DNA of 64,000 nt, taken from assembly GCA_964016885.1 (NCBI GenBank), contig OZ024751.1, positions 51,460,001 through 51,524,000 on the forward strand, given 5' to 3'. This document shows positions 46 through 44,559 of this stretch, in pieces. The DNA comes from Eledone cirrhosa (taxonomy: Eukaryota). Both the position numbers and the translations under genes were made by a program. The notes under the pieces were generated by a model. The model made no database searches and was not told the origin of the DNA. It saw nothing but the letters and a program-made list of their open reading frames with translations. How positions within the stretch are numbered: position 1 is the first letter of the stretch; every line of letters starts with the position of its first letter.

Positions 46-81
46 TCTTCTGATGAAGGACTAGCATCCGAAACATTAAGA
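46..81 (+). ncRNA. Minimal type I hammerhead ribozyme (family 1) in a short element ending in (TA)n at ~170
   Basis: TCTT-CTGATGA-aGGA ctagca TCC-GAAA-CA-TT|AAGA: intact core, 3-bp helix II, 4-bp helix I (TCTT/AAGA), helix III ACAT (probably a decayed ACGT palindrome). Confidence 0.7.
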
Positions 82-807
82 CCCTCTACCTGTTATATCA
101 AGCCTTAACCTAATATATCCCTTCCATATACTGTACTGATTGTGTTGTTATTTCTGTTTACCTTTTACATATATATATATATATATATATATATATGCAT
201 TTATATATATATATATATTTAAGAGTCTAAGTCAGTGTTGCAGTATATATATATATATATATATATATATATATATATATGATGGACTCTCCCATGAATT
301 TCAGCGTATAAGGATTCAAACAACCTATTCATTTCATTCAGTTTGGATGTTCATATGAGGCATGACATTTTAGACCTGCCACAGATTGTTCAAGAGTGAG
401 GTTTACTGGATAATATTGCTGGTATGTTTAATAAGGCTTTTCTCCTCCTTCTTGCTTCTTGTAGCCTATGGATACAACCAGAGATGAAATTCCTGATCCT
501 ATTATGACACACAGATCTCCAGTTCTACTGCAAAGCCACATGCTCAAATGAACGTGAGGACCCGTCCAACCCATGCAACAGTGGAAAAAAGGACATAAAA
601 ATGACGATGATATCATCATCGTTTAACGTCCATTTTCCACGCTAGCATGGGTCTTACCATTGTAAGGGGTCTGACGAGCCGTGGATTACAGAGTCGGGCT
701 AGATCGATACAGATCGAACCTTGAGCTGATCAATGGCGTAACACCCATCACCAACCAATAAAAGTAATGAAGGAGTAACCAATAGTCCTTGTTTTATTTT
801 ATTATTT

Positions 808-1200
808 TATTTCATTTCATTTCATTTCATTTACGTCCACTTTTCCCTGCTTGCAAGGGTGGGACGGGAACTGATTCTGGCTTGATTTCTACAGTTGGAT
901 GCCCTTCCTAACACCAACCTCATTTACAGTGAGTACTGGGTGCTTTTTTTTCCATGGCGCCTACACGTCCACTTTACAGTGTGCGCTGGGTGCTTTTTTG
1001 CCGTGGCACCTCTATGACCACTTTACAGTGGAATGATAGGGACCCCAGTCCCTATCATCTCATTTCTACAGCTGAGTAAACTGGAGCAATGTGAAATAAA
1101 GTGTCTTGCTCAAGGAAACAACACATCACCCGGCCCAAGAATTGAACTCACAACCTTTCGATTGCAAGGCCAATGCTCTAACCACTAAGCCATGTGTCTC
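808..1200 (-). mobile_element. tRNA-derived SINE, family A (RTE-type 3' tail)
   Basis: Reverse strand has A-box TGGCTTAGTGG and B-box GAGTTCAATTC; 3' end CCCACCCTTGCAAGCAGGGAAAAGTGGACGTAAA+(ATGAA)n is shared with the RTE fragment at 11297-11966; near-identical copies elsewhere in the window. Confidence 0.85.
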
Positions 1201-1672
1201 TATATATATATATAACCTTGGGCCCTCTTAAAATCATAGGGGTGTGATCGAGACATACAACATGTCATAAGCATTATAAACCTGGTAGAACCTACCATTC
1301 TCCAGGTCTGTATACAGCTAATTTATTACAGAGAGAGAAAGAGAGGGCTGGAGGCTGGAGTGATGAAGAAGAATTTGTACAAATATTAGCTTGATACTTT
1401 ATTTAATGACAACCAAAAGTATAAAAAACAAAGTTCATGTCAGGAGTATTTGAACTCAGAACTAGAGCTAAAACTATCCAGCTTTCTAAAGACTGTCAAT
1501 TTCCCACTTTTACATATATATCGTCCCACCCTTGCAAGCAGGGAAAAGCGGACGTAAAATGATGATGATGATGACGATGATGATGATGATATATATATAT
1601 ACACACACACATACATATCTATATCTATATCTATATATATATATATACACACATATATATATATATATATAT

Positions 1673-2228
1673 AAATTGGAATAAATGCTCTGAAATAGCG
1701 ATATATATGTGAATATAGACATAGAATATTCGAAAATATTCTGTATGTTTATAATAAACATTTTGAAGACCTAATCGCTATAGAATAGAATACGTCACGT
1801 ATTACAATTAGATTCTCGATAAAAGCAAGGGAAGTAATCTACGCATTTCATTCTTGTTAGAAATCATCAGGACTACATATCCAGTGCTTTTATCGAGAAT
1901 GACACAGCTAGAGACTTATAGAATACTTAGCTGTGTACAGGAACTGGTTTGAAAGAGCGGTTGCCGGTCCGGCAGAAATTAGAAATTGGAATAAATGCTC
2001 TGAAATAGCGATATATATGTGAATATAGACATAGAATATTCGAAAATATTCTGTATGTTTATAATAAACATTTTGAAGACCTAATCGCTATAGAATAGAA
2101 TACGTCACGTATTACAATTAGATTCTCGATAAAAGCAAGGGAAGTAATCTACGCATTTCATTCTTGTTAGAAATCATCAGGACTACATATCCAGTGCTTT
2201 TATCGAGAATGACACAGCTAGAGACTTA
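1673..2228 (-). repeat. Inverted arm (~1.8 copies) of the 310-bp HHR monomer
   Basis: Reverse complement of the array at 2229-7357; period 310 (1681 vs 1991); HHRs at 1834-1876 and 2144-2186 on minus. Confidence 0.95.
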
Positions 2229-43470: not shown

Positions 43471-43872
43471 AGAGGTAAGGATTGACACACACACATACAA
43501 AATTGAAGATAGCAAGTTTGGCTTTTACAAACTACCTTCCTTCTTCTTGTGACCAAATACTGAAACTGACACATAACTGCCCCAGCTCCTGCAATTCTGA
43601 CTTAGATACATGATTCAGCTAATTGACTTATATATATATATATATATCATCATCATCATCATTTTACGTCCGCTCTTCCCTGCTTGCATATATATATATA
43701 TATATATATATATATATATATATATATAGAAAAATAGAAAAAATAGAAAAATAGAAAAAAATATATATAAATATATATAACCAAAGATTAATATGGTCCG
43801 TTGATTACTCAACGAATACAGTTTTATAATAGATTAGAAGCACTCAACAGCAAAGTTTTCATGGAGTTTTTA

Positions 43873-44211
43873 ATATTATTCAAAATGTTAACAAATGAAA
43901 AATATTCACATAATCAAAATATATACTTTATTATATATATTTCAAAGGTACGGTGCTGTTTTTTTCAGTACGTCCTCATCAGACAAAATATATGATTTGA
44001 TATATGACATACCGCTACGGTCTTGATTATTCAATTTCAGATACGGGAATTGAATAATCAAGACCGTAGCGGTATGTCATATATCAAATCATATATTTTG
44101 TCTGATGAGGACGTACTGAAAAAGACAGCACAGTACCTTTGAAATATATATAATAAAGTATATATATTGATTATGTGAATATTTTTCATTTGTTAACATT
44201 TTGAATAATAT
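43873..44211. repeat. ~340-bp palindromic HHR element (left arm extends to ~43727)
   Basis: TTGATTATTCAATTTC-agatacg-GGAATTGAATAATCAA centre; few mismatches between arms; ends in (TA)n. Confidence 0.92.
44096..44158 (+). ncRNA. Type I hammerhead ribozyme (mirror at 43926-43988, minus)
   Basis: TTTTGT-CTGATGA-GGAcGTACTG...CAGTACcTTT-GAAA-TATATA-TA|ATAAAG. Confidence 0.78.
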
Positions 44212-44295
44212 ATATATATATATATATATATATATATATATATATATAAGAACAAAGGAACAAAAAATCAATGTTGTATCATAACATATTTAATA

Positions 44296-44387
44296 ACATA
44301 TTACATATGTTTCACTGTCGATCAGCTCAAGGAATGATCTATTATTGATCGAACCTGACTCTGGAATCGAAAGATCCTCAGATATGT
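44296..44387 (-). ncRNA. Hammerhead ribozyme, same family as 40758, in an element ~44247-44411
   Basis: Core, helix I and helix III identical to the 40758 copy; substitutions confined to the helix II domain. Confidence 0.8.
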
Positions 44388-44559
44388 CTCATATGTAAGC
44401 TCATCTCAGATTTATATATATATATAGAGAGAGAGGGGGGTGGGGAGAATTTTCCATGGTCACCCCAAACTCTTAAAAATAGCAGCCAAATCTCCCTCAA
44501 ATCACACTCTACCATTTTGAAAATGAAAAAAAGCATGTCACTACTGTCACTAACACCAC

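What the first reader, a model, noticed from the sequence alone, without database searches (positions are those of the whole stretch)
46..44411. About nine different HHR-bearing mini-element families, mostly in (TA)n microsatellites, within 45 kb
Seen: HHR motifs at 46, the 310-bp array, 16844/31703, 19425/19651/20962, 20191/20374, 22344/43926/44096, 22848, 40758/44296 and 41705/41817. Helix sequences differ completely between families, yet the core, helix I pairing (weak only at 31703) and a self-complementary or nearly self-complementary helix III (ATGCGT, ATGATCAT, ACATATGT, AGTACT, ATATATAT) are kept. Nearly all of the elements begin or end in a TA tract. Established: PLE pLTRs carry such HHRs and some PLE clades target microsatellites. 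Inference: this genome holds a very large, probably unannotated ribozyme-element population hidden in masked low-complexity DNA.
Basis: partly seen in the sequence, partly recalled or inferred. Interest (0 to 1): 0.85.

Follow-up and report, generated by a model that had tools for sequence, protein, structure and literature searches.

The report
Penelope retroelement ends carrying hammerhead ribozymes
The predicted self-cutting RNA motifs crowding this stretch are real and mostly mark the cut-short ends of Penelope-type jumping genes sitting in TA repeats, a known kind of element; this genome holds over 100,000 such motifs, and the fixed pairing of ends in back-to-back copies suggests the enzyme likely copies its RNA into both sides of a DNA break.

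Summary
A hammerhead descriptor finds 31 motifs in the window and 0 in 30 shuffles; four more listed motifs were checked by eye. Stem II covaries. Most are not dedicated mini-elements: seven of ten labels are 5'-truncated ends of protein-coding Penelope-like elements (PLEs): Hydra-type C, E, F, H; Neptune-type B, J, I. A is a 310-bp ORF-less retrozyme, D a ~2-kb ORF-less element, G unlinked. Seven patterns give 103,429 exact matches genome-wide, controls 0; a blind 400-kb sample suggests ~1.5e5. Rfam finds none in the window. Nine families have two fixed 3' ends; back-to-back copies pair one short with one long end (55 of 58, never short+short), and either arm can be longer. That points to two priming events at one break (inferred). 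PLE hammerheads, retrozymes and (TA)n-targeting Hydra elements in Octopus are published. Scale, the end rule and element D were not found in print. This scan noted the same system, retrozyme and end rule earlier on other DNA of this genome. Cleavage and expression are untested.

The parts
1..168 (+). Family I: 3' end of a PLE with RT and C-terminal GIY-YIG (Neptune-type linker); hammerhead core at 50
   Evidence: broken ORF ~0.5-0.7 kb upstream in L347, L357, L359; 4,014 exact motif matches
666..748 (+).
   Evidence: run X1 shows A at 739 in nearly all laid depth, i.e. GAAA in most copies of this repeat
1670..2228 (-). Family A retrozyme, inverted arm, 1.8 units, long (tailed) end; cores at 2180 and 1870
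2229..7366 (+). Family A retrozyme, forward arm: 16 identical 310-bp units plus 178 bp, 17 hammerheads, short end
   Evidence: 13,948 exact motif matches genome-wide
16635..17047 (+). Family B: pLTR end of a Neptune-type PLE, with a short inverted tailed arm at 16635-16728; core at 16849
   Evidence: 100% identical to the pLTR of a 4,281-bp unit with an open 1,279-aa frame (L237, L238); 14,737 matches
19295..19845 (.). Family C back-to-back pair, both arms tailed; cores 19481 (-) and 19659 (+); centre of a 981-bp palindrome 19084-20064 that includes host flank
   Evidence: an 84%-identical end lies downstream of a Hydra-type ORF in L150
20132..20632 (.). Family D back-to-back pair (short end on -, tailed end on +); cores 20244 (-), 20378 (+); end of a ~1.8-2.1-kb ORF-less element
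   Evidence: 3,638 matches
20924..21104 (-). Family C single truncated copy, short end; core 21018
22274..22459 (+). Family E single truncated copy, short end; core 22350
   Evidence: Hydra-type ORF pieces upstream in L144, L145, L148; tail runs into an ORF start in L146
22782..22940 (+). Family F: 3' end of a Hydra-type PLE; U3-A8 variant core at 22852
   Evidence: (GIY-YIG end ~0.35 kb upstream in L239, L240, L170, L177, L180)
31204..31964 (+). Family J: pLTR end of a Neptune-type PLE with inverted arm 31204-31374; core 31707, helix I 2 bp
   Evidence: (1,215-aa open frame in L242)
40625..40870 (-). Family G, tailed end; core 40843; 61-nt stem II region
   Evidence: no ORF link found; 530 matches to a tight pattern
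41541..41973 (.). Family H back-to-back pair (tailed end on -, short end on +); cores 41737 (-), 41821 (+)
   Evidence: tail runs into a 667-aa Hydra-type frame in L152; 5,955 matches
43781..44211 (.). Family E back-to-back pair (tailed end on -, short end on +); cores 43982 (-), 44102 (+)
   Evidence: C/E-type pattern 60,607 matches
44245..44410 (-). Family G, short end, sharing a TA tract with the E pair; core 44381

Best explanation
These motifs are hammerhead-type sequences at the ends of Penelope-like retroelements and of protein-free passengers, left in TA repeats as short truncated copies, likely because the element's enzyme cuts both DNA strands and starts copying its RNA on each broken end from one of two fixed points just downstream of the hammerhead. 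Shown: the motifs, their covarying stem II, the links of seven families to RT/GIY-YIG frames, ORF-less units for A (310 bp) and D (~2 kb), two fixed 3' ends in nine families, and the short+long pairing of back-to-back arms. Inferred: double-strand cleavage in (TA)n; two primings, one per start point, probably on the same RNA; early termination and joining of the two cDNAs; A and D borrowing a PLE protein. Because copying starts only ~50-200 nt past the hammerhead, most stubs carry one, which explains the count. The hammerhead would cut tandem transcripts as a dimer through its palindromic helix III; most genomic stubs are probably inert passengers.
For: Descriptor vs shuffles. Stem II: 6 of 8 pairs change on both sides, 24 such cells vs 7.8 in shuffles, 0/500 (13 C/E-type sequences, related, so not a probability). 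ORF links: B, J, E, H, C-like, F, I. Motifs DKT, CxCx5C, YRDD for H and the related intact Hydra-type frame L153; Cx4Cx2C, YVDD, GIY-YIG for B and J; Atlas neighbours carry RVT_1, GIY-YIG and HTH_animal. D: direct-repeat units of 1,830-2,072 bp, longest frame 89-114 aa in 4 of 4 units. Bimodal 3' ends in nine families. Inverted pairs: 100 short+long, 7 long+long, 0 short+short, 19 unclassified of 126; after removing query-biased and doubtful rows 55, 3, 0 of 58. Short arm longer in 12, long arm longer in 8, 2 unresolved of 22, which a single fold-back does not give. In family A 11 of 11 two-armed loci among the first 100 listed matches carry the same one of four motif variants on both arms (read by eye). 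In vitro a Poseidon PLE protein cuts and extends both strands of AT-rich DNA from two internal start sites that define the tail (PMC11167929, parts 1-2 read).
Against: No cleavage or expression data. In PMC11167929 the start site did not differ between strands and hammerhead mutants inserted normally, so neither the short/long split nor a role for the ribozyme is shown biochemically. One of nine Xenopus retrozymes cleaved in vitro (bioRxiv 10.64898/2026.07.22.740005), and minimal PLE hammerheads cleave weakly (PMC4209133). Family I has one end position (34 of 44 at 168) and does not show the rule. G has no ORF link. C's link rests on an 84%-identical relative. Pfam gave no family for 7 of 7 PLE proteins or fragments at E<=0.001; clade names rest on motifs, not a tree. 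Arm-length assignment resolved only 22 pairs. Arm similarity in A could come from later gene conversion, and fetched A loci were as close between loci as within some (0.57-1.08 vs 0.54 differences). Monomer folding z-scores are weak (-1.65 to +0.56).
Confidence: 0.75

Rival explanations
1. Same elements, but back-to-back copies arise from one priming followed by fold-back or template switching, and the short end is made when the endonuclease resolves the intermediate.
For: Craig et al. ascribe the one-ended tail to EN-mediated resolution (PMC8557442, passage). Many pairs have a hairpin at the centre. The window's C pair is the centre of a 981-bp palindrome that copies host flank, which looks like fold-back.
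Against: In 12 of 22 resolved pairs the short-ended arm is the longer one and the tailed arm holds sequence the short arm lacks, so neither can be a plain copy of the other.
Confidence: 0.25
2. The stubs are dedicated mini-elements (SINE- or MITE-like) that move as fixed short or palindromic units.
For: Thousands of short copies per family; D palindromes of similar length, ~480-510 bp.
Against: Inner junctions differ from copy to copy; the similar length came from the query; longer copies run into ORFs or, for D, a 2-kb unit. True only for A, possibly G.
Confidence: 0.07
3. Chance matches to a short AT-rich motif in low-complexity DNA.
For: The core is short; (ATG)n repeats give many CTGATGA words; Rfam finds no hammerhead.
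Against: 0-1 hits in shuffles; 0 in reversed-pattern controls against 530-60,607 matches; covariation.
Confidence: 0.01

Closest known systems
[quoted passage not shown]
   Same: Core, short palindromic helix III, many divergent families per genome, mostly single motifs from truncated PLEs, opposite-strand pairs 100-700 bp apart, U3-A8 variant.
   Different: Count here >=103,429 vs ~9,000 (Xenopus), ~4,000 (coelacanth), ~3,300 minimal motifs (Schistosoma) in that paper; stem II regions up to 61 nt; 8-nt palindromic helix III in C, D, E, G.
Hydra clade PLEs incl. Hydra-1_Obim (Craig et al. 2021, PMC8557442; section 11, passages and supplement passages read)
   Same: C-terminal GIY-YIG, DKT, CxCx5C linker, hammerhead in pLTR, (TA)n insertion; the printed Hydra-1_Obim protein shares RRMRWK, DKTNNLY, KDHKPNF and YRDDAL stretches by eye.
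   Different: One octopus Hydra family was reported; at least five occur here. Tails ~25-160 nt vs 30-40 bp reported. Five motif words from this window's families are absent from that supplement.
Poseidon PAc of Anolis, internal RT initiation (Frangieh et al. 2024, PMC11167929; parts 1-2 of 4 read)
   Same: Two start sites downstream of the hammerhead define short and tailed ends; in B the ends fall inside the ORF's 5' end; AT-rich target.
   Different: No strand difference in start site was seen in vitro; here the two ends of one insertion are almost always one of each.
Metazoan non-LTR retrozymes (PMC7229834, passages; bioRxiv 10.64898/2026.07.22.740005, parts 1-3 of 5)
   Same: Family A: ~300-bp low-GC tandem unit, one type I hammerhead per unit, no ORF, U-U at the base of stem II as in axolotl HHR_Amex2.
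   Different: Dispersed back-to-back arrays with PLE-type ends in (TA)n; 'inverted' does not occur in the PMC7229834 main text. D is ~2 kb, beyond the 51-972 bp consensus range in the preprint.

Membership tests
Type I hammerhead (PLE/retrozyme type) | Core CUGANGA ... GAAA ... UH | tested here: met
   Nine of ten labels; F has the published U3-A8 variant
Type I hammerhead (PLE/retrozyme type) | Helix II with compensatory changes | tested here: met
   C/E group only: 6 of 8 pairs change on both sides; other families not tested for covariation
Type I hammerhead (PLE/retrozyme type) | Helix I of 4 bp or more next to the core | tested here: inconclusive
   Met for A, B, C, D, E, G, H, I; not met for J (2 bp in 6 of 6 copies) and F (displaced by 3 nt)
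Type I hammerhead (PLE/retrozyme type) | Self-cleavage at the UH site | not testable with these tools
   No assay
Hydra clade PLE (C-like, E, F, H) | RT followed by C-terminal GIY-YIG, DKT, CxCx5C linker | tested here: met
   H: DKT, CxCx5C, GIY; C-like: DKT; F: CxCx5C; E: 33-68% matches to the Hydra-type protein L057 over residues 2-892 in pieces
Hydra clade PLE (C-like, E, F, H) | N-terminal RWK motif | tested here: inconclusive
   MRWK in L153 (not a window family), IRWR in C-like; region absent from the H and F frames examined
Hydra clade PLE (C-like, E, F, H) | CCHH motif absent; placement in the RT phylogeny | not tested
Hydra clade PLE (C-like, E, F, H) | Insertion into (TA)n | tested here: met
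   3' ends followed by microsatellite: C 67 of 72, E 25 of 32, F 19 of 22, H 28 of 34
Neptune clade PLE (B, J, I) | CX2-5CxxC linker between RT and C-terminal GIY-YIG | tested here: met
   B and J: Cx4Cx2C and GIY motif; I: same linker in broken frames
Neptune clade PLE (B, J, I) | Placement in the RT phylogeny (Neptune vs Nematis) | not tested
   Named 'Neptune-type' from motifs only
Metazoan non-LTR retrozyme (A) | Tandem ~300-bp low-GC unit, one type I hammerhead per unit, no protein | tested here: met
   310 bp, GC ~0.33-0.34, no frame of 110 aa in 2229-7289, no PLE ORF joined to A in 15 other loci
Metazoan non-LTR retrozyme (A) | Accumulates as circular RNA | not testable with these tools
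   No RNA data could be examined
Metazoan non-LTR retrozyme (D) | Short tandem unit under 1 kb | tested here: not met
   Unit 1,830-2,072 bp with pLTR-like direct repeats; works like a non-autonomous PLE, not filed as a classical retrozyme

The most novel reading that the evidence does not exclude
This genome carries one of the densest hammerhead loads in animals (35-50 per Mb), laid down by dimeric PLE enzymes whose two active sites read one RNA, possibly a hammerhead-made circle, from two different fixed start points into the two ends of a cut (TA)n tract; a 310-nt retrozyme and a new 2-kb protein-free element exploit the same two-start signal.
Probability: 0.35. Interest if true: 0.72.

Novelty: new member of a known kind. 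Interest (0 to 1): 0.48.

Why it matters
How PLEs form their tandem and inverted insertions and why they favour microsatellites is named as open in PMC8557442. A near-exceptionless short+long end rule across nine families, including protein-free ones, gives a precise prediction for the existing in vitro system and is direct genomic evidence that animal retrozymes use PLE machinery. Intact, young elements (B copies 100% identical; open Hydra-type frames) supply the reagents. Practically, over 100,000 ribozyme motifs missed by Rfam, many in back-to-back pairs that would form double-stranded RNA if transcribed inside introns, matter for annotating this genome.

Tried and rejected
Rfam: no hit at gathering thresholds; the E-value scan's 150 shown rows of 266 held no hammerhead family and were nearly all microRNA models on TA repeats. 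'Candidate' counts of DNA searches are not copy numbers: A gave 16 but 13,948 exact motif matches; my notebook entries 1-2 carry the lower figure. Horizontal transfer of A: 20 public runs under 17 organism codes hold the unit. Of six holders laid, X1 also holds single-copy window sequence; X2, X4, X5, X10 and X12 gave only high-copy repeats at low depth with single-copy stretches uncovered, which fits traces of this kind of DNA, so no transfer is claimed (X24, not a holder, gave 0 reads from 1% read). No RNA holder listed. ORF for G: none joined in 13+12+20+20 loci or four longer stretches; PLE frames next to G in L246 and L375 are not continuous with it. One search queried the wrong strand and returned G ends instead of G upstream. 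The Hydra frame beside C in L151 is separated by a TA tract and was not counted as a link. Pfam found no family in 7 PLE proteins or fragments. Literature: 'hammerhead ribozyme' + 'Octopus bimaculoides' 0 papers; + 'cephalopod' 2 listed; the O. vulgaris repeat paper has no occurrence of hammerhead, ribozyme or retrozyme (PMC13282606); searches listed no paper on a short+long pairing rule. Subscription papers and the preprint's supplements were not seen and may hold octopus counts. Lunse et al. on dimeric cleavage is recalled only.

Full report
Setting. The window is G000:C11:51460001-51524000 in a 3.0-Gb assembly. I read it as octopus-like from its repeat landscape (recalled knowledge) and the likeness of its Hydra-type proteins to Hydra-1_Obim; no tool named the organism.

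Observation. A strict type I descriptor found 27 motifs against shuffle means of 0.00-0.09. A wider one found 31 against 0 in 30 shuffles. Four listed motifs (50, 22852, 31707, 41821) pass neither and were checked against other copies: I and H are ordinary with a 4-bp helix I; F has the U3-A8 core described in PMC4209133 and a displaced helix I; J has a 2-bp helix I in 6 of 6 copies. Among 13 distinct C/E-type motifs (picked from 46 stem II variants in my loci) 93% of cells pair and 6 of 8 stem II pairs change on both sides. Single-strand folding is not exceptional (z -1.65 to +0.56), as expected for motifs with an unstable helix III. Rfam reports nothing at gathering thresholds. C/E and B/J are sister families, so the helices do not all differ.

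Scale. Exact patterns gave C/E-type 60,607, B 14,737 (91), A 13,948 (84), H 5,955 (92), I 4,014 (86), D 3,638 (90), G 530 (87): 103,429 in all, with 0 in every reversed control. The D and G patterns cover only the 3' half of the motif; the C/E pattern includes sister families; F, J and families absent from the window are not counted. Forty 10-kb stretches at positions chosen by hand, blind to content and spread over 20 chromosomes, held 21 descriptor hits in 13 stretches, one of them probably chance, against 0-1 in 10 shuffles: about 50 per Mb, roughly 1.5e5 genome-wide. Of the 21, 13 lie within 200 nt upstream of (TA)5 against 12.6% of random positions. The axolotl has 126,247 motifs (PMC7229834, passage) in a 28-Gb genome (preprint), so density here is about ten times higher. 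The window is about five times richer than the sample.

What they belong to. B is 100% identical to the pLTR of a 4,281-bp unit with an open 1,279-aa RT/GIY-YIG frame; J ends a 1,215-aa sister. F lies ~0.35 kb after a Hydra-type endonuclease end in five loci. E lies ~1.1 kb after one in three loci, and in L146 its tail runs on into an ORF start; H's tail runs into a 667-aa frame; an 84%-identical C relative closes a Hydra-type element. I follows broken RT/GIY-YIG frames in three loci. Pfam did not recognise these proteins (0 of 7); motifs, Atlas neighbours and the printed Hydra-1_Obim sequence support the names. A is an ORF-less tandem unit in the window and 15 other loci. D is the end of a 1,830-2,072-bp unit with direct terminal repeats and no frame over 114 aa in 4 of 4 units. 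G could not be linked to an ORF.

How they get there. Nine families have two preferred 3' ends, short and tailed, ~25-160 nt apart; I has one. The tail is the sequence that follows the pLTR in full-length copies, as for PAc, where two internal RT start sites define it (PMC11167929). Of 126 back-to-back pairs, 100 were short+long, 7 long+long, 0 short+short and 19 unclassified. After dropping family A, the window's pairs, the D loci found with a two-ended query, pairs under 150 bp, matches under 80% and ends without an outside microsatellite, 55 of 58 were short+long and 3 long+long. Inner junctions vary. Where the extra sequence could be assigned, the short arm was longer in 12 and the tailed arm in 8 of 22. 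I infer two primings, one on each end of a double-strand cut in (TA)n, one from each start site. In A, both arms of 11 of 11 listed two-armed loci share a motif variant, which suggests one template; the unit-by-unit test was weak because the fetched loci were close relatives, and gene conversion is not excluded. Against: PAc showed no strand difference in start site and did not need its ribozyme in vitro; the window's own C pair is long+long inside a palindrome that copies host flank.

Comparison. It works like, and on the tested motifs belongs to, the known PLE-pLTR hammerhead system (PMC4209133), with Hydra elements already reported in Octopus on (TA)n (PMC8557442 supplement) and the tail noted there as often present at one end only. 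A fits metazoan non-LTR retrozymes. My searches found no report of the count, the strict pairing or a 2-kb protein-free hammerhead element. Earlier notes of this scan describe the same system, the 310-nt retrozyme and the end rule on other DNA of this genome; they are leads, not support. I noted the one-arm tail before those look-ups and took the PMC4209133 id and the Hydra-1_Obim lead from them.

Verdict. Real, abundant, a known kind; new families, an unusual load and a testable insertion rule. Interest 0.48.

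Noticed in passing
window 19084-20064: 981-bp palindrome, 97.7% between arms, centred on the C pair and mirroring ~210 bp of host flank on each side; looks like fold-back copying through the element into host DNA.
   Followed up: partly
window 666-748: Decayed long-stem-II hammerhead-like motif of a further abundant repeat; most copies in run X1 have the GAAA core.
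   Followed up: partly
window 26329-27471 (-): Large exon of a sodium/calcium exchanger gene (PF01699); elements at lower coordinates may lie in its introns.
   Followed up: no
window 32280-35471 (+): Open 1,063-aa RTE-like LINE frame with endonuclease and RT motifs; broken copies at 50667-56030 (family name recalled).
   Followed up: no
tails of A, C, D, E, G (references): A shared word GAG(T/C)(G/A)(C/T)T lies in the tail between the two ends in five families, absent by that search in B, J, H, F, I; candidate protein-binding signal, which would tie A and D to Hydra-type proteins.
   Followed up: partly
L153:2913-5594, L154:4382-7060: Young Hydra-type family with open 893-894-aa frames and its own hammerhead, not represented in the window.
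   Followed up: partly
L212, L222, L342, L343, L373: Tandem repeats ~75% alike to family A with ~316-bp spacing: a sister retrozyme family.
   Followed up: no
L204, L206, L210, L226, L234: Further hammerhead families absent from the window, with helix III ACTAGT, ACATGT or ACTAATTAGT.
   Followed up: no
G000:C12:17019337-17478998: Eight G copies about 60 kb apart with identical scores: a large tandem segmental repeat.
   Followed up: no
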